This document shows, piece by piece, positions 7,568 to 17,501 of a stretch of 19,882 nt of DNA. The notes beneath the pieces were generated by a model. It was not told where the DNA came from. It saw only the letters and a list, made by a program, of their open reading frames with translations, and searched no databases. The position numbers and the translations under genes are program-made. This stretch comes from a virus. The DNA lies in UHGV virus genome UHGV-0342044; one strand, written 5' to 3'. Positions within the stretch are counted from its first letter, which is position 1. Every line of letters starts with the position of its first letter.

Positions 7568-7776
7568 ACCAGAATGATATCGAAGCCATGATTCAGCGTT
7601 ATACGGAAGCTGAAATGGCGGTGCTGGACGGAAAATCCGTCACCTTTAATGGTCAGCAGATGACCATGGAAAACTTATCTGAGATCCGGCAGGGACGGCA
7701 GGAGTGGGAGCGCCGCCTTGCGGCTCTGATTACACGACGACGGGGGCATCCCGGGTACCGGCTGGCGAGGTTCTGA
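7564..7776 (+). CDS. head-tail joining protein (gpW-like)
   Basis: About 70-aa ORF between terminase and portal. ATG at 7564 overlaps the terminase stop (ATGA); GGAGG at 7553-7557. C-terminal RRRGHPGY resembles the lambda W C-terminus. Confidence 0.55.
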   Translation: MNQNDIEAMIQRYTEAEMAVLDGKSVTFNGQQMTMENLSEIRQGRQEWERRLAALITRRRGHPGYRLARF

Positions 7777-9284
7777 TGGCAATTCTTGATGATGTGATTG
7801 GCGTTTTTTCACCAGGATGGAAAGCGGCAAGGCTGCGTTCCCGTGCGGTGATCCAGGCTTATGAGGCCGTAAAAACGACGCGGACACATAAAGCCCGGCG
7901 GGAAAACCGAACTGCCGACCAGTTAAGCCAGTACGGGGCCGTGTCGTTACGTGAGCAGGCCCGTTACCTTGATAACAACCACGATCTGGTCATTGGTGTA
8001 TTTGACAAGCTGGAAGAACGGGTGGTGGGGAAAAACGGGATTATTGTCGAGCCACATCCGGTATTACGCAATGGGGCCATTGCCCGTGATCTGGCAGCGG
8101 AGATACGCACCCGATGGAGTGAATGGTCTGTCAGTCCGGAAGTCACCGGGCAGTTTACCCGTCCGATGCTGGAACGTCTGATGCTGCGTACCTGGCTGCG
8201 CGATGGTGAGGTGTTTGCCCAGATGGTTTCCGGGCGCATAAACAGCCTGACGCCTTCTGCCGGTGTTCATTTCTGGCTGGAGGCGCTCGAGCCGGACTTT
8301 ATTCCCATGACCAGTGATGAGAGCAACAGGCTGAATCAGGGCGTGTTTGTTGATGACTGGGGGCGTCCCGAAAAATATCTGGTGTATAAAAGCCGTCCCG
8401 TATCCGGGCGGCAGATGGAAACCAAAGAAGTGGATGCAGAGCGAATGCTGCATCTTAAATTTGTTCGCCGTCTGCACCAGATGCGCGGGACGTCTTTGTT
8501 GTCCGGTGTGCTGATCCGCCTCAGTGCCCTGAAAGAGTATGAAGATTCTGAGCTGACTGCAGCAAGGATCGCCGCTGCTCTGGGGATGTACATCCGCAAA
8601 GGCGACGGACAGAGCTATGAAACGGATGGTAATGACAGCAAGGAGAATGAACGCGAGCTTACCATTCAGCCAGGCATTATTTACGACGATCTGAAACCCG
8701 GCGAAGAAATCGGAATGGTGAAGTCGGATCGCCCCAATCCTAATCTTGAAACTTTTCGTAATGGTCAGTTGCGTGCCGTGGCGGCGGGTAGTCGTCTGAG
8801 TTTTTCCAGTACAGCGCGCAACTATAACGGCACTTACAGCGCCCAGCGTCAGGAGCTGGTTGAATCCACTGATGGCTACCTGATCCTGCAGGACTGGTTT
8901 ATTGGTGCCGTCACCCGCCCGATGTATCGTGCCTGGCTGAAACAGGCTGTGGCATCCGGTGTTATCAGGCTACCCCGCGATCTTGATCGTTCTTCACTGT
9001 ATACCGCGGTGTATTCCGGACCGGTGATGCCGTGGATTGACCCTGTTAAGGAGGCTGAGGCCTGGAAAATTCAGATTCGTGGTGGAGCGGCGACAGAATC
9101 AGACTGGGTACGTGCAGGTGGTCGTAATCCGGATGATGTCAAACGTCGGCGCAAGGCAGAAATTGATGAAAACCGCAAGCTGGATCTGGTATTTGATACC
9201 GATCCTGCCAGTGATAAAGGAGGCAGCAGTGCCGCAACGAAACGACAGGAGCCGCAGCACACCGACGACCAGTCCGAAGAATAA
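7776..9284 (+). CDS. portal protein
   Basis: About 500-aa ORF immediately after the W-like gene. ATG at 7776 overlaps the W stop (TGATG). Position and size are typical of a portal; the ORF track's upstream extension from 7704 overlaps W. Confidence 0.85.
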   Translation: MAILDDVIGVFSPGWKAARLRSRAVIQAYEAVKTTRTHKARRENRTADQLSQYGAVSLREQARYLDNNHDLVIGVFDKLEERVVGKNGIIVEPHPVLRNGAIARDLAAEIRTRWSEWSVSPEVTGQFTRPMLERLMLRTWLRDGEVFAQMVSGRINSLTPSAGVHFWLEALEPDFIPMTSDESNRLNQGVFVDDWGRPEKYLVYKSRPVSGRQMETKEVDAERMLHLKFVRRLHQMRGTSLLSGVLIRLSALKEYEDSELTAARIAAALGMYIRKGDGQSYETDGNDSKENERELTIQPGIIYDDLKPGEEIGMVKSDRPNPNLETFRNGQLRAVAAGSRLSFSSTARNYNGTYSAQRQELVESTDGYLILQDWFIGAVTRPMYRAWLKQAVASGVIRLPRDLDRSSLYTAVYSGPVMPWIDPVKEAEAWKIQIRGGAATESDWVRAGGRNPDDVKRRRKAEIDENRKLDLVFDTDPASDKGGSSAATKRQEPQHTDDQSEE

Positions 9285-9297
9285 TTCCTGGTTCAGG

Positions 9298-11256
9298 ATG
9301 CAGGCTGGTCACCAGAGTGACGCGGATATTTATATTTATGACGAGATTGGTTTCTGGGGTGTTACAGCGAAGCAGTTTATCAGTGATCTGAATGCACTGG
9401 GCGATATCACCCACATTAATCTCCATATCAATTCACCGGGTGGCGATGTCTTTGAAGGCATCGCCATTTTTAATGCGCTGAAAACACATGGTGCGTCCAT
9501 TACCGTTTATGTCGACGGTGTGGCGGCGTCAATGGCGTCGGTCATTGCGATGGTGGGAAACCCGGTCATTATGCCGGAAAACACCTTCATGATGATTCAT
9601 AAACCATTTGGCTTTACGGGCGGTGATGCGGAGGACATGCGCACCTATGCTGACCTGCTCGATAAGGTTGAGGCGGTTCTGTTACCCGCTTATGCACAGA
9701 AAACCGGGAAAACCACCGATGAAATTGCTGCCATGCTGGCGGATGAGACCTGGATGTCTGGTGCCGAATGTCTGGCACATGGATTTGCTGATCAGGTGAC
9801 GCCAGCCGTTAAGGCAATGGCATGTATTCAGTCAAAACGTACAGAGGAATTTAAAAAGATGCCGGAATCCATTCGAAACATGATTACTCCGCCACGCAAC
9901 AGTGCTCCACGCGTACAGGATGATGAACCAGCAGCCTCCCGGACGCCAGTGCAGGCAGCAGCACCCGTGGTGGATGAAAACAGTATCCGTGCGCAGGTAC
10001 TGGCAGAGCAAAAAGCGCGTGTAAACGGTATTAATGATCTGTTTGCCATGTTTGGCGGGCGTTATCAGACGCTGCAGGCTCAGTGTCTTGCCGATCCTGA
10101 ATGTTCGCTGGAGCAGGCCCGCGAAAAGCTGTTGAACGAGATGGGGCGCGAGTCCACGCCATCCAATAAAAATACCCCGGCTCATATTTATGCCGGTAAC
10201 GGTAATTTTGTGGGGGACGGGATCCGCCAGGCGCTGATGGCGCGTGCCGGATTTGAAAAAACCGAACGTGATAATGTCTACAACGGGATGACCCTGCGTG
10301 AATATGCCCGTATGTCACTGACTGAACGGGGTATTGGGGTTTCCAGTTATAACCCGATGCAGATGGTCGGTGCGGTGTTCACACACAGTACGTCTGACTT
10401 CGGTAATATTCTGCTGGATGTTGCGAACAAAGCCATTCTGCAGGGCTGGGAAGATGCTCCTGAAACCTATGAACAGTGGACGCGGAAAGGTCAGTTGTCT
10501 GATTTTAAAATTGCCCATCGTGTGGGTATGGGGGGCTTCAGTGCTCTGCGTCAGGTGCGTGAAGGGGCGGAATATAAATACGTCACCACCGGAGATAAAC
10601 AGGCCACTATTGCACTGGCGACCTATGGCGAGCTGTTCAGTATCACCCGTCAGGCCATTATCAATGATGATCTGAATATGCTGACCGATGTCCCGATGAA
10701 ACTGGGCCGTGCGGCGAAATCCACTATTGCCGATCTGGTTTATGCCATTCTGACGTCTAACCCGAAAATCTCCACAGATAATGTAAGTCTGTTCGATAAA
10801 GCGAAACATGCAAACGTACTGGAGAGCGCTGCAATGGACGTGGCATCGCTGGATAAAGCCCGCCAGTTGATGCGCGTTCAGAAAGAGGGGGAGCGTCATC
10901 TGAATATTCGTCCTGCGTTCGTACTGGTACCGACGGCGATGGAGTCTGTTGCTAACCAGGTCATTCGCTCCTCAAGTGTCAAGGGGGCTGACATTAACGC
11001 CGGTATTATTAACCCGGTGAAAGATTTTGCGACCGTTATTGCAGAGCCTCGTCTTGATGATAACAGCCAGACCACCTTCTACCTGGCTGCGTCAAAAGGC
11101 TCCGATACAATTGAAGTGGCTTATCTCAACGGTGTGGATACGCCATATATTGATCAGATGGAGGGCTTCAGTGTGGATGGCGTGACAACGAAAGTGCGTA
11201 TTGACGCCGGTGTCGCGCCAGTTGATCACCGCGGTCTGGTGAAATGTACGGCGTAA
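9298..11256 (+). CDS. fused prohead protease (ClpP/S49-like) - scaffold - major capsid protein
   Basis: N-terminal ClpP-like protease domain (IYIYDEIGFWG...INSPGGDVFEGIAIFNAL...ASMASVIAMVG), a central Ala/Gln-rich scaffold-like linker, and a C-terminal capsid-like domain. Start placed at the first ATG after the portal stop. The open frame extends back to 9037 inside the portal gene, so the start is uncertain. Confidence 0.75.
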   Translation: MQAGHQSDADIYIYDEIGFWGVTAKQFISDLNALGDITHINLHINSPGGDVFEGIAIFNALKTHGASITVYVDGVAASMASVIAMVGNPVIMPENTFMMIHKPFGFTGGDAEDMRTYADLLDKVEAVLLPAYAQKTGKTTDEIAAMLADETWMSGAECLAHGFADQVTPAVKAMACIQSKRTEEFKKMPESIRNMITPPRNSAPRVQDDEPAASRTPVQAAAPVVDENSIRAQVLAEQKARVNGINDLFAMFGGRYQTLQAQCLADPECSLEQAREKLLNEMGRESTPSNKNTPAHIYAGNGNFVGDGIRQALMARAGFEKTERDNVYNGMTLREYARMSLTERGIGVSSYNPMQMVGAVFTHSTSDFGNILLDVANKAILQGWEDAPETYEQWTRKGQLSDFKIAHRVGMGGFSALRQVREGAEYKYVTTGDKQATIALATYGELFSITRQAIINDDLNMLTDVPMKLGRAAKSTIADLVYAILTSNPKISTDNVSLFDKAKHANVLESAAMDVASLDKARQLMRVQKEGERHLNIRPAFVLVPTAMESVANQVIRSSSVKGADINAGIINPVKDFATVIAEPRLDDNSQTTFYLAASKGSDTIEVAYLNGVDTPYIDQMEGFSVDGVTTKVRIDAGVAPVDHRGLVKCTA

Positions 11257-12536: not shown

Positions 12537-12934
12537 ACCGACATACACAAATCCGCCAGGCCGTACTGGCACGCCTTCGGGAACAGTGTGGAGACAGCGC
12601 CACGTTTTTTGACGGGCTTCCGGCATTTATTGATGCGCAGGAACTGCCTGCCGTGGCGGTGTGGCTGAGTGATGCTCAGTACACCGGAAAAATGACGGAT
12701 GAAGATGACTGGCAGGCTGTTCTGCATATTGCCGTCTTCATCCGGGCACAGGCACCGGATTCAGAGCTGGATATGTGGATGGAGAGCACCATTTTCCCTG
12801 CCCTGAATGATATACCGGCACTTTCCGGACTCATCGACACCCTGATCCCACTCGGTTTTAACTATCAACGTGATAATGAGATGGCCACCTGGGCGATGGC
12901 GGAAATCACGTACCAGATCACGTACACGAATTAA
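12533..12934 (+). CDS. U: tail terminator protein U
   Basis: ATG at 12533 overlaps the Z stop (ATGA). Product contains ATFFDG, FPAVAVWL, AQYTG, PDSELDMWMES and DIPALS, closely matching lambda gpU from memory. Confidence 0.85.
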   Translation: MNRHTQIRQAVLARLREQCGDSATFFDGLPAFIDAQELPAVAVWLSDAQYTGKMTDEDDWQAVLHIAVFIRAQAPDSELDMWMESTIFPALNDIPALSGLIDTLIPLGFNYQRDNEMATWAMAEITYQITYTN

Positions 12935-12944
12935 GGAGGTGGTA

Positions 12945-13688
12945 ATGACCACACCAAATCCACTGGCAAAGACGAAAGGTGCGGGGACGACGTTCTGGAT
13001 GTATACCGGCAACGGCGACGCATTTGCGAACCCTTTGTCGGACACTGACTGGCTGCGTCTTGCGATGGTGAAGGATCTGCAACCTGGCGAAATGACCGCT
13101 GATGCAGAAGATGATACTTATCTCGATGATGAAGATGCAGACTGGAAAACGACAACCCAGGGGCAGAAATCCGTTGGTGATACTTCGGCGACGCTGGCCT
13201 GGCGTCCAGGTGACAGCGGGCAGAAAAAACTGGTTCAGTTGTTCGACTCCGGTGAAGTCTGCGCGTTTCGTATCAAATATCCCAACGGTACTGTTGATGT
13301 TTTCCGTGGCTGGCTGAGTTCACTGGGTAAAACCATTGCCTCAAAAGACGTGATGACCCGCACTGTGAAAATCAGCGGTGTGGGGCGTCCGTATCTGGCA
13401 GAGGAAGGCACTGAAACAGTGAGCGTTACCGGGCTGACGGTGGCACCGGCATCTGCCAGTGTAAAAGTGGGAGCAACCACCACGCTGACCTTTACAGTAA
13501 AACCTGACGGAGCCAGTGACAAAGCGATCAGTGTGCATTCGTCAGATCCACAGACTGCCACGGTGACCCTGAACGGGCTTGTAGCCACGGTGAAAGGCGT
13601 GAAGCAGGGCAGTGTCAGCATTGTGGGCATGACCGCTGACGGGAATTTTGTGGCTGTGGCTGCGGTGACTGTCAGCGCCGCAGGTTAA
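12945..13688 (+). CDS. V: major tail protein V (with C-terminal Ig-like domain)
   Basis: AAGGAGG at 12933-12939 and ATG at 12945. Product MTTPNPLAKTKGAGTTFWMYTGNGDAFANPLSDTDW...YLDDEDADW...NGTVDVFRGW is lambda gpV-like. The ORF track's longer version from 12870 overlaps U. Confidence 0.9.
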   Translation: MTTPNPLAKTKGAGTTFWMYTGNGDAFANPLSDTDWLRLAMVKDLQPGEMTADAEDDTYLDDEDADWKTTTQGQKSVGDTSATLAWRPGDSGQKKLVQLFDSGEVCAFRIKYPNGTVDVFRGWLSSLGKTIASKDVMTRTVKISGVGRPYLAEEGTETVSVTGLTVAPASASVKVGATTTLTFTVKPDGASDKAISVHSSDPQTATVTLNGLVATVKGVKQGSVSIVGMTADGNFVAVAAVTVSAAG

Positions 13689-13708
13689 CAGGACGATACT
13701 CATCATTT

Positions 13709-13732
13709 GCCCCGGTTATCCGGGGCTTTTTT
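13709..13732 (+). terminator. rho-independent terminator/attenuator between V and G
   Basis: GCCCCGG (13709-13715) / CCGGGGC (13720-13726) stem with loop TTAT, followed by TTTTTT (13727-13732). Confidence 0.6.
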
Positions 13733-13745
13733 GCAGGTGGAGAAC

Positions 13746-14135
13746 ATGATGTTTCTGAAACAGGGCACGTTTAATTATGAAAAACAGTCCGTGGTGCTCA
13801 GTGAGCTGTCCGGGCTGCAGAGAATTGAATATCTGGCGTTTGTTCAGCAGCGAACGGCAAAGTTTGATGCCGGTGAGGGAGAACTGCCGGAGGCTGAACG
13901 ACAGATTGCTTTTCTGCGGATGGGGATGGATATCAATGCCTGGCTGGTTTCCCGCTCACTGTGGAATGCGGATCAGTCTAAGGATGTAGAGACGCTTTGC
14001 GCATCCGTTATTACAACATGGTCGTATGATGCCCTGGGTGCGGGGGCGGAGATGGTTCTGTCGCTGAGCGGTATGGGGGCCATTGATAATGCCGGGGATG
14101 ATGAGCATGAGGCGCTGACGCCGGAAAAGTCCTGA
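13746..14135 (+). CDS. G: tail assembly chaperone G
   Basis: GGTGGAGAA Shine-Dalgarno then ATGATG at 13746/13749. Product MMFLKQGTF...LSELSGLQRIEYLAF resembles the lambda gpG N-terminus (MFLK...LSELSALQRIEHLA). Ends at TGA 14133-14135. Confidence 0.8.
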   Translation: MMFLKQGTFNYEKQSVVLSELSGLQRIEYLAFVQQRTAKFDAGEGELPEAERQIAFLRMGMDINAWLVSRSLWNADQSKDVETLCASVITTWSYDALGAGAEMVLSLSGMGAIDNAGDDEHEALTPEKS

Positions 14136-14473
14136 CGCGGGAAATGCAGTTTGTCATGCGGCTTGCCCGGGAGTTCCGGCGGGCAGACTGGCGGCGGATG
14201 CTGTCGGAAATGTCGGCCACTGAGCTTGGTGAGTGGGGCGATTATTTCCGGATGCAGAGCTTCAGTGATGTGTGGATGGATGCGCAGTTTGCCTCGCTGA
14301 AGGCATTGATCGTGAGAATGGTGTCCGGCAGCAGTGATGCTGCGGTGGCTGATTTCAGCCTTTTACCGGAAGAGAACGGGATACCGGAGCGAACGGACGA
14401 AGAACTGATGCATCTTGGGGAAGGTATTTCCGGAGGTGTGCGTTATGGACCAGATAGCCAACCTGGTCATTGA
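13746..14473 (+). CDS. GT: tail assembly chaperone G-T, predicted product of programmed -1 ribosomal frameshift
   Basis: The -1 frame is open from 14111 through 14473 and overlaps the 3' end of G. Candidate slip site is GGAAAAG at 14123-14129, where lambda has GGGAAAG. The T-frame product (…RRMLSEMSATELGEW…) resembles lambda T. The exact junction was not determined. Confidence 0.6.
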
Positions 14474-17400
14474 TTTGGGGATTGATGCGGCAGAGTTTAA
14501 AAATGAAATCCCCCGTATCAAAAACCTTCTGAATGGTGCAGCCAGCGATGCAGAACGGTCTTCTGCCCGTATGCAGCGTTTTATGGAGCGTCAGACTCAG
14601 GCCGCCCGGCAGACAACGCAGGCGGCGTCTTCGGCTGCAACAGCCGCATCCGTCCATGCGCAGACGGTGGAGAAGAACGCACAGGCTCATGAACGCATGG
14701 CCCGCGAGGTGGAGAAAACCCGCCAGCGCATGGAGGCGCTGAGCCAGAAAATGCGCGAGGAACAGGCGCAGGCCATGGCTCTGGCGGAGGCTCAGGATAA
14801 AGCGGCTGCTGCGTTTTATCGTCAGATTGACAGTGTGAAACAGGCCAGTGCGGGTCTGCAGGAATTACAGCGTATTCAGCAGCAGATCCGACAGGCCAGA
14901 AACAGTGGCGGGATTGGTCAGCAGGATTATCTGGCGCTGATTTCTGAGGTTACGGCGAAAACCCGTGTTCTTACACAGGCTGAGGAAGAGGCTACCCGAC
15001 AGAAAGTGGCGTTTATCCGTCAGCTTAAAGAGCAGGCAACCCGCCAGAATCTTTCTTCTTCTGAGTTGCTTCGTGCTAAGGCTGCCCAGCTGGGGGTAAG
15101 CAGTGCTGCAGAAGTGTATATCCGCAAAATGGAGCAGGCAGGAAAAGCCACGCATTCGCTGGGGCTGAAAAGTGCAGCGGCCCGTCAGGAGATAGGCGTT
15201 CTGATAGGTGAACTGGCCCGCGGAAATTTAGGTGCGCTGAGGGGATCCGGAATAACGCTGGCTAACCGTGCCGGGTGGATAGACACATTGATGTCACCGA
15301 AAGGCATGATGCTTGGCGGGGTTATTGGCGGTATTGCCGCGGCTGTCTATGGTCTGGGTAAAGCCTGGTATGACGGTCAGAAGGAGGGGGAAGAATTTAA
15401 CCGCCAGCTGTCGCTGACGGGGCATTATGCCGGAGTCACTGCCGGGCAGCTGTGGACGCTCAGTCGTGCTATTTCCGGGAATGGTATCACGCAACATGCT
15501 GCAGCCGGTGCGCTGGCTCAGGTGGTGGGGAGTGGTGCATTTCGTGGAAACGATATCGGTATGGTGGCGAGAGCTGCCGCACAGATGGAGCGATCGGTTG
15601 GCCAGTCGGTCAGCGATACCATAAATCAGTTTAAGCGGCTGAAGGATGATCCTGTAAATGCCGCGAAGTCTCTGGACAATGAGCTGCATTTTCTTACTGC
15701 CACTCAGCTTGAGCAGATACGCGTCCTTGGAGAGCAGGGGCGGTCCAGTGATGCGGCACGGATAGCCATGTCTGCACTGGCAGAGGAAACCGGTCGGCGT
15801 ACTGCGGATATTGATAATAACCTCAATGCGCTGGGCAGTACGCTGCAAACTTTGTCTGACTGGTGGAAGCAGTTCTGGGATGCGGCCATGAATATTGGTC
15901 GTGAAGATTCGCTGGATGCGCAGATTGCCACTTTGCAGGAGAAAGTGTCGCGGGCGAAAAGACTCCCCTGGACGGCATCATCTTCTCAGGTTGAATACGA
16001 TCAGCAGCGTCTTAACGATCTTCAGGAGAAAAAACGCCAGAAGGATTTGCAGGATGCAAAAGAGCAGGCAGAGCGGAATTATCAGGAGCAACAGAAACGC
16101 CGTAATGCTGAAAATGCTGCACTGAACCGGATGAATGAAACGGAAGCTGCACGACATCAGCGTGAAATTGCGCGTATTAATGCCATGCAGTACGCCGATC
16201 AGGCTGTCAGGGATGCGGCGATACAACGTGAAAATGAACGTTACGAGAAAGCCCTGGCATCCGGTAAGAAAAAAACACGCGAAACCCGTAATGATGAGGC
16301 CACCCGGTTATTGCTGCAGTACAGTCAGCAACAGGCACAGGTGGAAGGACAGATTGCTGCTGCAAGACAGTCAGCAGGCATTGCCACTGACAGGATGACA
16401 GAAGCGCATAAACAGCTTCTGGCTCTGCAGCAGCGCATCAGCGATCTGGACGGGAAAAAACTGACGGCAGATGAAAAGAGTGTGCTGGCCCGTAAAGATG
16501 AACTGATTCAGGCACTGACGCTGCTGGATGTAAAACAGCAGGAGCTTCAGAAACAGACGGCACTCAACGATCTGAAGAAAAAAACAATTCAGCTGACCAG
16601 TCAACTGGCTGAAGAAGAGCGCGCTCAGCGTCAGCAACATGACCTGGATATCGCCACGGTTGGTATGGGTGATCAGCAGCGGCAGCGATATCAGGTACAA
16701 CTGAGTCTTCGCCAGAAATACCAGCAACAGCTGGAGCAGTTGAGGCGGGATAGTGAGCAGAAAGGGACATATAACACGGATGACTACAGAAAGGCCGAGC
16801 AGGCGCTGACGGAGAGCCTGAACCGACAACTGAATGAGAATCGCCGTTACTGGCAACAGCTTGAAATTGCTCAGGGTAATTGGAAAAACGGAGTCCTGCG
16901 TGCACTCCAGAATGTCACTGAGAATGCGGATAACACAGCCGGGACAGTGGAACAGTTGTTCACGTCTGCGTTCAGTAGCATGAGTGACTGGCTGGCGACA
17001 TTCTGTACTACAGGCAAACTCAATTTCAAATCTTTTACTTCTTCTGTGCTGTCAGATATGTCCAGAATCATGGCTCAGATAGCTTTAATGAAAGCGGTAA
17101 AAGGCATTGCTTCCGCGCTGCCTTTTGATTTTGTAGCCAATGCTGATGGCGGTGTTTATCAGTCGGCTGATTTGAGTCGCTACAGTGGCACGGTGGTTAA
17201 CCGTCCGACGTTTTTTGCTTTTGCAAAAGGCGCGGGTGTGATGGGGGAAGCTGGACCTGAAGCCATTCTGCCACTGCGTCGTGGTGCTGACGGTAAGCTG
17301 GGGGTTGTGGCGGATATTGGTGGTTCAGGTATGGCGATGTTTGCCCCGCAGTACAATATCGAGATCAATAACGATGGCACGAACGGGCAGATAGGCCCGG

Positions 17401-17501
17401 CTGCCCTGAAGGTGGTTTATGACCTTGGGAAAAAAGCGGCAGCGGACTTTATGCAACAGCAGGCCCGTGATGGTGGTCGGTTAAGTGGAGCATATCGGTA
17501 A
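14445..17501 (+). CDS. H: tail tape measure protein H
   Basis: About 1018-aa coiled-coil-rich protein; GGAGGTG at 14433-14439 and ATG at 14445. N-terminus (ANLVIDLGIDAAEF) and C-terminus (NNDGTNGQIGPAALKVVYD...RDGG) match lambda gpH motifs from memory. Confidence 0.9.
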   Translation: MDQIANLVIDLGIDAAEFKNEIPRIKNLLNGAASDAERSSARMQRFMERQTQAARQTTQAASSAATAASVHAQTVEKNAQAHERMAREVEKTRQRMEALSQKMREEQAQAMALAEAQDKAAAAFYRQIDSVKQASAGLQELQRIQQQIRQARNSGGIGQQDYLALISEVTAKTRVLTQAEEEATRQKVAFIRQLKEQATRQNLSSSELLRAKAAQLGVSSAAEVYIRKMEQAGKATHSLGLKSAAARQEIGVLIGELARGNLGALRGSGITLANRAGWIDTLMSPKGMMLGGVIGGIAAAVYGLGKAWYDGQKEGEEFNRQLSLTGHYAGVTAGQLWTLSRAISGNGITQHAAAGALAQVVGSGAFRGNDIGMVARAAAQMERSVGQSVSDTINQFKRLKDDPVNAAKSLDNELHFLTATQLEQIRVLGEQGRSSDAARIAMSALAEETGRRTADIDNNLNALGSTLQTLSDWWKQFWDAAMNIGREDSLDAQIATLQEKVSRAKRLPWTASSSQVEYDQQRLNDLQEKKRQKDLQDAKEQAERNYQEQQKRRNAENAALNRMNETEAARHQREIARINAMQYADQAVRDAAIQRENERYEKALASGKKKTRETRNDEATRLLLQYSQQQAQVEGQIAAARQSAGIATDRMTEAHKQLLALQQRISDLDGKKLTADEKSVLARKDELIQALTLLDVKQQELQKQTALNDLKKKTIQLTSQLAEEERAQRQQHDLDIATVGMGDQQRQRYQVQLSLRQKYQQQLEQLRRDSEQKGTYNTDDYRKAEQALTESLNRQLNENRRYWQQLEIAQGNWKNGVLRALQNVTENADNTAGTVEQLFTSAFSSMSDWLATFCTTGKLNFKSFTSSVLSDMSRIMAQIALMKAVKGIASALPFDFVANADGGVYQSADLSRYSGTVVNRPTFFAFAKGAGVMGEAGPEAILPLRRGADGKLGVVADIGGSGMAMFAPQYNIEINNDGTNGQIGPAALKVVYDLGKKAAADFMQQQARDGGRLSGAYR

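What the first reader, a model, noticed from the sequence alone, without database searches (positions are those of the whole stretch)
14111..14135. G-T programmed -1 frameshift with a non-canonical slippery heptamer (GGAAAAG)
The T frame is open only from 14111, so the shift must occur in the last 25 nt of G. The only plausible slippery site is G-GAA-AAG at 14123-14129, one base different from lambda's G-GGA-AAG. The A-site shift (AAG to AAA by tRNA-Lys) is canonical. The P-site shift would require tRNA-Glu to re-pair GAA to GGA with a mid-codon mismatch, so efficiency or mechanism may differ from lambda.
Basis: partly seen in the sequence, partly recalled or inferred. Interest (0 to 1): 0.45.

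Follow-up and report, generated by a model that had tools for sequence, protein, structure and literature searches.

The report
Phage tail chaperone G-T frameshift site
This is the ordinary ribosomal frameshift site that lambda-like phages use to make a small amount of a fused tail-assembly chaperone; its "odd" slippery sequence GGAAAAG is the commonest form in this gene family and is already annotated as the slip site in phage N15.

Summary
G (13749-14135) ends in TGA. The T frame is -1 relative to G and is open only from 14111. The only in-phase slip-prone heptamer in the 25-nt overlap is G_GAA_AAG at 14123-14129.

The interpretation, a G-T programmed -1 frameshift, has strong comparative support. 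I examined 154 homologous junctions (70 unique) from lambdoid phages and prophages of many enterobacterial genera. Every one carries exactly one in-phase heptamer. It is GGAAAAG in most lineages and lambda's GGGAAAG in a few. The flanking G tail diverges completely. The codon before the heptamer always ends in G. T-frame protein conservation starts at the heptamer. In 18 of 39 representative junctions the first T-frame ATG lies 24 codons downstream.

It is not novel. The N15 GenBank record marks GGAAAAG as "slippery sequence for -1 translational frameshift". Gifsy-2 is annotated with a frameshift hybrid. G_GA-type P-site codons are a recognised class of shift sites. The window is 100% identical here to plaque-forming phages (mEp460_4F5, Tritos, PhiR47_1) and the region is present in 1846 of 5426 complete E. 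coli genomes.

Two things remain open. No efficiency measurement in cells for this heptamer turned up in the papers I could search. In vitro work used it as a poorly slipping control. I found no convincing stimulator in the window.

The parts
13749..14135 (+). Gene G, tail assembly chaperone (128 aa, MFLK...TPEKS). An alternative ATG at 13746 adds one Met. A GGAG Shine-Dalgarno sequence lies at 13739-13742.
   Evidence: Pfam PF06894 Phage_TAC_2, E=1.8e-39. Translation. Annotated as G in mEp460, PhiR47_1 and RefSeq E. coli.
14108..14110 (+). TGA stop in the T (-1) frame. It sets the upstream limit of the zone in which the shift must happen.
   Evidence: Translation of the -1 frame. Overlap analysis.
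14109..14112 (+). GAGG, a Shine-Dalgarno-like tetramer 10 nt upstream of the heptamer, the same spacing as in dnaX. A possible 5' stimulator; unproven.
   Evidence: A GAGG, AGGA or GGAG motif starts at -14 or -13 in about 13 of 39 representative junctions. It coincides with an invariant Glu codon of G (E122) followed by a codon that starts with G. Similar motifs are common elsewhere in the acidic tail. Inconclusive.
14111..14135 (+). G/T overlap zone, 25 nt, open in both frames.
14123..14129 (+). Slip site G_GAA_AAG. P-site tRNA-Glu moves from GAA to GGA. A-site tRNA-Lys moves from AAG to AAA.
   Evidence: It is the only in-phase candidate in the zone. GGAAAAG or GGGAAAG is present in phase in 154 of 154 homologous junctions. 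The same 7-mer is annotated as the slippery sequence in N15.
14129..14473 (+). T-frame coding segment: 114 codons plus the stop, VLTREMQFVMRLAREF... It is read only after the shift. The predicted GT fusion is 241 aa: G residues 1-127 followed by this segment.
   Evidence: Pfam PF06223 Phage_tail_T, E=5e-15. T-frame peptide conservation begins at the heptamer, and the ATG at 14144 aligns with non-start codons (CTG, CTT, CAT, CGT...) in most relatives.
14445..17501 (+). Gene H, the tape measure protein. It is the presumed client of G and GT. Its start overlaps the end of T by 29 nt, with GGAGG at 14432-14436.
   Evidence: Pfam TMP_2, Tape_meas_lam_C and TMP_4. Start taken from the mEp460 annotation.
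12870..13688 (+). Gene V, the major tail tube protein with a C-terminal Big_2 domain. In lambda the T part of GT binds this protein.
   Evidence: Pfam PF16461, E=6e-67, and PF02368.

Best explanation
Positions 14123-14129 are the programmed -1 ribosomal frameshift site of the tail assembly chaperone genes G and T of a lambdoid phage of the mEp460/cdtI type.

Most ribosomes read ...CCG GAA AAG TCC TGA and release G (128 aa). A small fraction slip back one base while GAA and AAG occupy the P and A sites. tRNA-Lys re-pairs from AAG to AAA. tRNA-Glu (anticodon mnm5s2U-U-C) re-pairs from GAA to GGA, with C36-G1 and U34-A3 as Watson-Crick pairs and U35 opposite G2 as a wobble-type pair that the P site tolerates. 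Translation then continues as GTC CTG ACG... and gives a 241-aa GT fusion, ...ALTPEK-VLTREMQF...

By homology with lambda, many copies of G and a few of GT coat the tape measure protein H. The T part recruits the tube protein V. Neither G nor GT ends up in the virion.

Shown here: the gene identities, the frame geometry, the uniqueness and deep conservation of the heptamer, and the lack of a conserved T start codon. Inferred: that the shift is a tandem (two-tRNA) slip, that its efficiency is a few percent, and the chaperone roles.
For: 1. Gene identity and order. The order is V, G, T, H, with Pfam hits to lambda's TAC-G and T families.

2. Deep conservation of the heptamer. All 154 junctions examined (70 unique) have exactly one in-phase heptamer in the G/T overlap. 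They come from phage records, IMG/VR contigs and GTDB species genomes, including Escherichia, Salmonella, Proteus, Providencia, Xenorhabdus, Kluyvera, Kosakonia, Phytobacter, Erwinia, Serratia and Edwardsiella. G protein identity to the window falls to about 31-45%. The heptamer is GGAAAAG in 58 unique junctions and GGGAAAG in 12.

3. Selection at the nucleotide level. The G tail upstream diverges beyond alignment, yet the codon before the heptamer is always NNG: GCG 19, CCG 13, CTG 6, ACG 1, four amino acids in all. Glu is always GAA and Lys is always AAG. An invariant G at heptamer base 1 is a synonymous position. It is expected only if the P-site tRNA must re-pair.

4. T cannot start on its own in many relatives. 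T-frame protein conservation (GK[VA]..E.xF..LAREF.R.DWR) starts at the heptamer. The first ATG in the T frame is 24 codons downstream in 18 of 39 representative junctions, and the window's ATG at 14144 is not conserved.

5. The two heptamers interchange. GGGAAAG appears in at least two or three separate clades of a GT tree.

6. Existing annotation. N15 marks GGAAAAG as the slippery sequence. Gifsy-2, which ends ACG CCG GAA AAG TCC TGA like the window, is annotated as a frameshift hybrid.

7. The sequence belongs to working phages. The region is 100% identical in plaque-forming phages (mEp460_4F5, Tritos, PhiR47_1) and is present in 1846 of 5426 complete E. coli genomes.
Against: - No protein-level evidence for GT in this lineage was available.
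- In a reconstituted E. coli system, G_GAA_AAG gave mainly 0-frame product and served as the 'only one tRNA can slip' control (PMC6924986).
- In E. coli reporters, motifs without a stimulator are barely shifty, at most about 10 times a 0.05% background (PMC4066793).
- I found no convincing stimulator in the window. The downstream fold is no better than shuffled sequence (z = -0.54 and -0.64). There is no family-wide conserved structure (consensus -1.27 kcal/mol, no covariation). The upstream GAGG is ambiguous.
- Databases annotate T as a separate 109-aa protein that starts at 14144.
Confidence: 0.88

Rival explanations
1. The site is the same, but only tRNA-Lys slips, on the A_AAG tetramer (the NNA_AAG 'hexanucleotide' type). 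tRNA-Glu does not re-pair. The shift happens either in the A site or after translocation with an empty A site.
For: - A_AAG is by far the best tetramer in E. coli, 5.6% with a pseudoknot (PMC4066793).
- NNA_AAG sites are used productively: IS1222 uses G_CGA_AAG, and Bacillus cdd shifts at A_CGA_AAG (PMC5009743).
- In Proteus and Providencia relatives a TAG stop follows AAG directly, which would favour a P-site slip.
Against: - Heptamer bases 1 and 2 are invariant G in all junctions. Base 1 is a synonymous third-codon position in four different codons, which a pure A_AAG slip would not need.
- The only variation seen, A or G at base 3, keeps a P-site codon whose tRNA can re-pair to GGA or GGG.
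- The codon after AAG varies widely: CCC, TCC, TCT, TAG, CCT, CTT and others. No common slow codon is present.
Confidence: 0.2
2. There is no frameshift in this lineage. T is made as a free 109-aa protein from ATG 14144, by re-initiation 8 nt after the G stop, as the database annotations imply.
For: - The window lineage does have an ATG at 14144, close to the G stop.
- GenBank and RefSeq annotate it that way.
- The free T sequence is on record on at least 1000 contigs, while the fused sequence is absent from the protein collection.
Against: - The ATG aligns with CTG, CTT, CAT, CGA, CGT or CGC in most relatives.
- The only Shine-Dalgarno-like bases (GGGA, 14139-14142) sit 1 nt from the ATG.
- In 18 of 39 representative junctions the first T-frame ATG lies beyond the conserved LAREF..DWR motif.
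- This model does not explain the heptamer's invariance.
- From established knowledge, in lambda T is made only as GT (Levin, Hendrix and Casjens 1993, cited).
Confidence: 0.05
3. The fusion arises from RNA polymerase slippage on the A run, which would give an mRNA with one base fewer, rather than from ribosome slippage.
For: None specific. The heptamer contains a run of four A.
Against: From established knowledge, the transcriptional slippage that bacteria and phages exploit needs runs of about 7-9 or more identical bases. Four A is too short. The phase-specific conservation of G_GAA_AAG, including the flanking G bases, fits tRNA re-pairing and not a homopolymer requirement.
Confidence: 0.01

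Closest known systems
Phage lambda G/GT programmed -1 frameshift (Levin, Hendrix and Casjens 1993; Xu, Hendrix and Duda 2004, 2013, 2014)
   Same: Homologous G and T domains, both of which hit Pfam's lambda TAC-G and minor tail protein T families. Same gene order V-G-T-H. T is in the -1 frame with a short overlap. The slip site lies near the end of G. The A-site codon is the same, AAG to AAA.
   Different: GT identity to lambda is only about 35%. The heptamer is G_GAA_AAG, not G_GGA_AAG, so the P-site tRNA is tRNA-Glu with a U-G middle pair after the shift, where lambda has tRNA-Gly with full pairing. The overlap is 25 nt against 64 nt. The heptamer ends 6 nt before the G stop, against 18 nt in lambda.
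Phage N15 genes 14/15 (GenBank NC_001901, misc_feature 10027..10033 'slippery sequence for -1 translational frameshift')
   Same: Identical heptamer GGAAAAG, in the same phase, at the same homologous position of a G/T pair.
   Different: N15-type G is about 34% identical to the window's G. N15 and several relatives can form a 7-bp hairpin that starts about 5 nt after the heptamer. The window does not form it, pairing 4 of 7 positions (my own column count on the alignment; family-wide pair counts; folds).
Gifsy-2 STM1039 / STM1041.1n (annotated 'part of G+G' frameshift hybrid protein')
   Same: The closest annotated relative outside the mEp460/cdtI group, 54.5% GT identity. The last six sense codons and the stop are identical: ACG CCG GAA AAG TCC TGA. 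It also has a GAGG/AGGA motif starting 14-13 nt upstream of the heptamer.
   Different: A Salmonella prophage. There is no T-frame ATG until 24 codons after the heptamer.
Near-cognate P-site slip sites: G_GA-type X_XX (insect-specific flaviviruses, some umbraviruses and dianthoviruses, mesoniviruses) and NNA_AAG hexamers (IS1222 G_CGA_AAG)
   Same: The P-site tRNA re-pairs imperfectly while a fully slippery A-site codon carries the shift. The Atkins 2016 review lists G_GA among the X_XX departures from three identical bases (PMC5009743).
   Different: The G_GA examples listed there are in viruses of eukaryotes, translated by eukaryotic ribosomes. The IS examples rely on strong downstream structures, which the window lacks.
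E. coli dnaX A_AAA_AAG
   Same: The A-site event is the same. The window has a GAGG 10 nt upstream, which matches the spacing of dnaX's internal Shine-Dalgarno stimulator.
   Different: dnaX has a strong 3' stem-loop and about 50% efficiency, and its frameshift product is the shorter one. No 3' structure is detectable here.

Membership tests
Lambda-type G/GT tail assembly chaperone frameshift | Two overlapping reading frames placed between the major tail protein gene and the tape measure gene | tested here: met
   V 12870-13688, G 13749-14135, T frame 14111-14473, H 14445-17501.
Lambda-type G/GT tail assembly chaperone frameshift | The upstream ORF is a homologue of lambda gpG | tested here: met
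   PF06894 Phage_TAC_2, E=1.8e-39, covering residues 2-122.
Lambda-type G/GT tail assembly chaperone frameshift | The downstream ORF is a homologue of lambda T, lies in the -1 frame, and has no conserved start codon of its own | tested here: met
   PF06223, E=5e-15. -1 frame relation. The ATG at 14144 is not conserved, and the first ATG is 24 codons downstream in 18 of 39 representative junctions.
Lambda-type G/GT tail assembly chaperone frameshift | A slip-prone heptamer in the correct phase inside the overlap, conserved among relatives | tested here: met
   G_GAA_AAG at 14123-14129. 154 of 154 junctions carry GGAAAAG or GGGAAAG in phase.
Lambda-type G/GT tail assembly chaperone frameshift | The GT fusion protein is made at a low, fixed ratio to G and is required for tail assembly | not testable with these tools
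   Needs protein analysis and genetics. The fused sequence is absent from the protein collection, which reflects annotation practice and says nothing about the biology.
Canonical X_XXY_YYZ tandem-slippage heptamers | Bases 1-3 identical and bases 4-6 identical, so that both tRNAs keep two full pairs after the shift | tested here: not met
   Bases 1-3 are GGA. Bases 4-6 are AAA. The site therefore works like a canonical heptamer at the A site only.
G_GA-type near-cognate P-site shift sites | The P-site codon is GAN and the overlapping -1 codon is GGA, next to a fully slippery A-site codon | tested here: met
   The sequence is G_GAA_AAG. The class is listed in PMC5009743. Whether tRNA-Glu really re-pairs is inferred from the invariant G at base 1.
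dnaX-type stimulated -1 frameshift | A stable stem-loop or pseudoknot 5-9 nt downstream of the heptamer | tested here: not met
   Window folds: z = -0.54 over 117 nt and z = -0.64 over +1..+45. The alignment consensus structure is -1.27 kcal/mol with no compensatory pairs.
dnaX-type stimulated -1 frameshift | An internal Shine-Dalgarno-like element about 10-14 nt upstream of the heptamer | tested here: inconclusive
   GAGG at 14109-14112 with a 10-nt spacer. A similar motif at the same offset occurs in about 13 of 39 representative junctions, but it is confounded with a conserved Glu codon and an acidic, G-rich tail.

The most novel reading that the evidence does not exclude
Most lambdoid G-T sites use G_GAA_AAG. 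Kinetic studies treat this heptamer as nearly non-slippery. Both of its tRNAs (Glu and Lys) carry the mnm5s2U34 modification. The GT level in these phages might therefore be set by a mechanism distinct from lambda's. One possibility is a U35-G middle-position re-pairing whose efficiency depends doubly on the host's tRNA thiolation state. Another is lineage-specific stimulators that compensate for a weak heptamer: an upstream GAGG in the window lineage and a hairpin in the N15-like lineages. Either would give a natural series for measuring what a P-site mismatch costs in cells.
Probability: 0.25. Interest if true: 0.45.

Novelty: already known. Interest (0 to 1): 0.2.

Why it matters
The practical value is for annotation. 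In this very common E. coli prophage lineage, G and T are annotated everywhere as two separate proteins, on at least 1000 contigs and in 1846 of 5426 complete genomes. The likely real product, a 241-aa GT fusion, is absent from protein databases.

The scientific value is modest. The census shows that GGAAAAG, not lambda's textbook GGGAAAG, is the usual slip site of this family, and that the two forms interchange in evolution. This is hard to square with in vitro work that uses GGAAAAG as a low-slippage control. It points to a simple, testable question about how much a middle-position U-G pair in the P site costs in living cells. It does not reveal a new kind of system.

Tried and rejected
1. 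A conserved downstream RNA stimulator. RNAalifold on 39 representative junctions gave no structure near the site. The window's own folds are not better than shuffled sequence. A hairpin limited to some lineages exists but is not formed in the window. Rejected for the window.

2. An upstream Shine-Dalgarno stimulator. GAGG at dnaX-like spacing is present, but I could not separate it from protein-coding constraints. Left open.

3. Rfam. No family matched 13600-14600.

4. Independent translation of T. Rejected on comparative grounds.

5. Chance. The 7-mer alone is not rare in the window, so I made no claim from its mere occurrence.

6. Literature.
- The primary papers (Xu et al. 2004 Mol Cell; Licznar et al. 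2003 EMBO J) are not held in the library. I could not check whether they list or measure GGAAAAG or GAA_AAG.
- Full-text searches for the heptamer together with phage or slippery terms found only Peng et al. 2019.

7. The first genome-contig query with a 7-sequence alignment failed for lack of a conserved stretch. A 5-sequence alignment worked.

8. The viral-contig scan returned only relatives at 94% identity or more. These show constancy within the lineage but add no diversity.

Full report
**1. The observation**

The sequence at 14100-14135 reads GAT GAG CAT GAG GCG CTG ACG CCG GAA AAG TCC TGA in the frame of an ORF that starts at 13746 or 13749. The -1 frame has a TGA at 14108-14110. It is then open from 14111 to a stop at 14471-14473. 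GGAAAAG sits at 14123-14129 in the phase G_GAA_AAG. The other in-phase heptamers of the 25-nt overlap are G_GCG_CTG, G_CTG_ACG, G_ACG_CCG, G_CCG_GAA, A_AAG_TCC and G_TCC_TGA. None of them offers A-site re-pairing. Lambda has G_GGA_AAG at the homologous place.

The 7-mer on its own is not statistically unusual. It occurs 5 times in the window against 2.65 expected. The case rests on position, phase and conservation.

**2. What the genes are**

- The upstream ORF is a lambda gpG-type tail assembly chaperone (PF06894, E=1.8e-39).
- The -1 frame ORF carries the lambda T domain (PF06223, E=5e-15).
- Upstream lies a lambda-type tail tube protein with a Big_2 domain.
- Downstream lies a tape measure protein.

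The 801 bases around the site are 100% identical to the phages mEp460_4F5, Tritos and PhiR47_1. They are 98-99.9% identical to mEp460, cdtI, HannyBb, Ayreon and phi458. The region occurs in 1846 of 5426 complete E. coli genomes. None of the records I inspected annotates a frameshift: mEp460, Ayreon, PhiR47_1 and one RefSeq chromosome. G and T are listed as separate genes, with T starting at ATG 14144. The predicted fused protein is absent from a collection of about 15 billion proteins. Free G and free T are each on record on at least 1000 contigs.

**3. Comparative evidence**

The GT protein of this lineage is only about 35% identical to lambda's and 54.5% identical to Gifsy-2's. It is a separate branch of the family and not a mutated lambda.

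I collected 154 homologous junctions, 70 of them unique over 142 nt. They came from annotated phages, 80 IMG/VR contigs and 68 loci from one-genome-per-species bacterial assemblies. The genera include Proteus, Xenorhabdus, Symbiopectobacterium, Serratia, Kluyvera, Kosakonia, Phytobacter, Buttiauxella, Atlantibacter, Erwinia, Edwardsiella, Enterobacter and Citrobacter.

In every one, the G/T overlap holds exactly one in-phase heptamer of two kinds:
- GGAAAAG, in 58 unique junctions. These are the window, Gifsy-2, N15/HK225, phi80/mEp213, Providencia PSTCR8lys and most others.
- GGGAAAG, in 12 unique junctions. These are the lambda lineage, one Symbiopectobacterium/Serratia group and Edwardsiella.

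The G tail just upstream cannot be aligned between lineages, yet several features are fixed:
- The codon before the heptamer always ends in G: GCG 19, CCG 13, CTG 6, ACG 1.
- Glu is always GAA.
- Lys is always AAG.

The distance from the heptamer to the G stop varies: 3, 6, 18, 30 or 84 nt.

The T-frame peptide is conserved from the heptamer onward: GK[VA]...E.xF..[KR]LAREF.R.DWR. In 18 of 39 representative junctions the first T-frame ATG is 24 codons downstream, beyond that motif. The window's ATG at 14144 aligns with CTG, CTT, CAT, CGA, CGT or CGC in most relatives.

A neighbour-joining tree of GT proteins places GGGAAAG in at least two or three separate clades. The A and G forms have therefore replaced each other more than once, and they behave as functional equivalents.

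**4. What was already known**

- The N15 record carries a misc_feature 'slippery sequence for -1 translational frameshift' at 10027..10033. That sequence is GGAAAAG, in GCG GAA AAG CCC.
- Gifsy-2's T homologue is annotated as 'part of G+G' frameshift hybrid protein'. Its G gene ends with the same ACG CCG GAA AAG TCC TGA as the window.
- The Atkins et al. 2016 review describes lambda G-T frameshifting and its 30:1 product ratio. It lists G_GA among the known departures from three identical X bases. It also describes NNA_AAG hexamer sites such as IS1222's G_CGA_AAG (PMC5009743).

**5. Mechanism**

The best-supported model is tandem -1 slippage. The A-site tRNA-Lys moves from AAG to AAA. The P-site tRNA-Glu moves from GAA to GGA, keeping C36-G1 and U34-A3 and placing U35 opposite G2.

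The argument for P-site re-pairing is the invariant G at heptamer base 1, which is a synonymous position in four different codons. In addition, base 3 varies only between A and G. A pure A_AAG slip would not need either constraint. This step is an inference.

The rival model, in which only tRNA-Lys slips, has some support:
- A_AAG is the most shift-prone tetramer in E. coli, 5.6% with a pseudoknot and about background without one (PMC4066793).
- In a reconstituted system, AUG GAA AAG gave mainly 0-frame product. [quoted passage not shown]

**6. Stimulators**

In E. coli reporters, heptamers without stimulators reach at most about ten times a 0.05% background. Some context effect is therefore expected if GT is made at the percent level.

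- Downstream. The window's RNA does not fold better than shuffled sequence (z = -0.54 over 117 nt; z = -0.64 over the first 45 nt). The 39-sequence alignment has no consensus structure near the site (-1.27 kcal/mol, no compensatory changes).
- Lineage-limited hairpin. A 7-bp helix starting about 5 nt after the heptamer (alignment columns 12-18 with 39-45) is well formed in the N15, Kluyvera, Atlantibacter, Leclercia and Buttiauxella lineages, with z down to -4.6. Across the alignment 71% of cells are paired, against 25-45% in slid controls. In the window only 4 of 7 positions pair, counted by eye from the columns of the alignment.
- Upstream. GAGG at 14109-14112 lies 10 nt before the heptamer, the same spacing as dnaX's internal Shine-Dalgarno element. 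A similar motif starts at -14 or -13 in about 13 of 39 representative junctions. It coincides with an invariant Glu codon of G followed by a codon that starts with G, and such motifs are common throughout the acidic tail. I leave this open.
- Rfam has no matching family.

**7. Verdict**

The interpretation as the G-T -1 frameshift site is strongly supported by comparative evidence. The feature is already known in kind and in exact sequence.

The residual points of interest are:
- a widespread annotation gap for this prophage lineage;
- the contrast between the family's preference for GGAAAAG and its use in vitro as a poorly slipping control;
- the fact that both tRNAs at this site carry the thiolated U34, which Maynard et al. 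2012 linked to lambda GT levels through tRNA-Lys (PMC3296357).

No efficiency measurement in cells for this heptamer was found in the searchable literature.

Noticed in passing
window 13709-13732: A strong intrinsic-terminator-like hairpin (GCCCCGG TTAT CCGGGGC followed by TTTTTT) sits in the 58-nt gap between the major tail gene V and G. The mEp460 record annotates a terminator here, and N15 has a putative one at the same place. It may lower G/T/H transcription relative to V.
   Followed up: partly
Alignment A3 columns 12-18 with 39-45 (for example L111:1586-1619, L009:710-743): A 7-11 bp hairpin starting about 5 nt after the heptamer is well formed in the N15/HK225, Kluyvera, Atlantibacter, Leclercia and Buttiauxella G-T junctions (z down to -4.6). 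It shows some compensatory changes, and 71% of cells are paired against 25-45% in slid controls. It is not formed in the window lineage. It may be a lineage-specific frameshift stimulator.
   Followed up: partly
L007:669-678, L101/L102/L103/L105:1581-1590: In Providencia phage PSTCR8lys and in Proteus prophages the G stop codon TAG follows the heptamer directly (G_GAA_AAG_TAG). In these lineages slow termination could contribute to the shift.
   Followed up: no
window 14144-14473: T is annotated in GenBank and RefSeq as a free 109-aa protein that starts at a non-conserved ATG. The predicted 241-aa GT fusion is absent from a collection of about 15 billion proteins. This is a systematic annotation gap for a prophage found in about a third of complete E. 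coli genomes.
   Followed up: yes
L138-L150 and L157-L159 (genome contigs): Contigs in assemblies labelled Neobacillus, Oceanobacillus, Pseudomonas, Kitasatospora, Shewanella, Chromatium, Leeuwenhoekiella, Bradyrhizobium and others carry G sequences 100% identical to lambda's. L155 and L156, at 99% and 93%, are near-identical. Many are low-coverage contigs. This is almost certainly lambda DNA contamination or spike-in and not real prophages.
   Followed up: no
L093 (MAG 'Bacillota bacterium'), L096 (MAG 'Proteobacteria bacterium'): Metagenome-assembled genomes with unrelated taxonomic labels carry this E. coli-type prophage G-T region at 93-96% protein identity. Mis-binning of Enterobacteriaceae contigs is the likely cause.
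   Followed up: no
window 14088-14135 and alignments A1/A2: A Glu five codons upstream of the heptamer's GAA/GGA codon (E122; motif E-x-[VLM]-[TS]-[AP]-[EG]-K) is invariant in G proteins that are otherwise unalignable in this tail. I could not tell whether this reflects protein function, a nascent-peptide effect or the Shine-Dalgarno-like GAGG.
   Followed up: partly
window 9037-11256: A 739-aa ORF lies downstream of the portal-sized ORF (7704-9284), where a head protease/scaffold and major capsid protein would be expected. It may be a fused head protein, as in some lambdoid prophages. I did not examine it.
   Followed up: no
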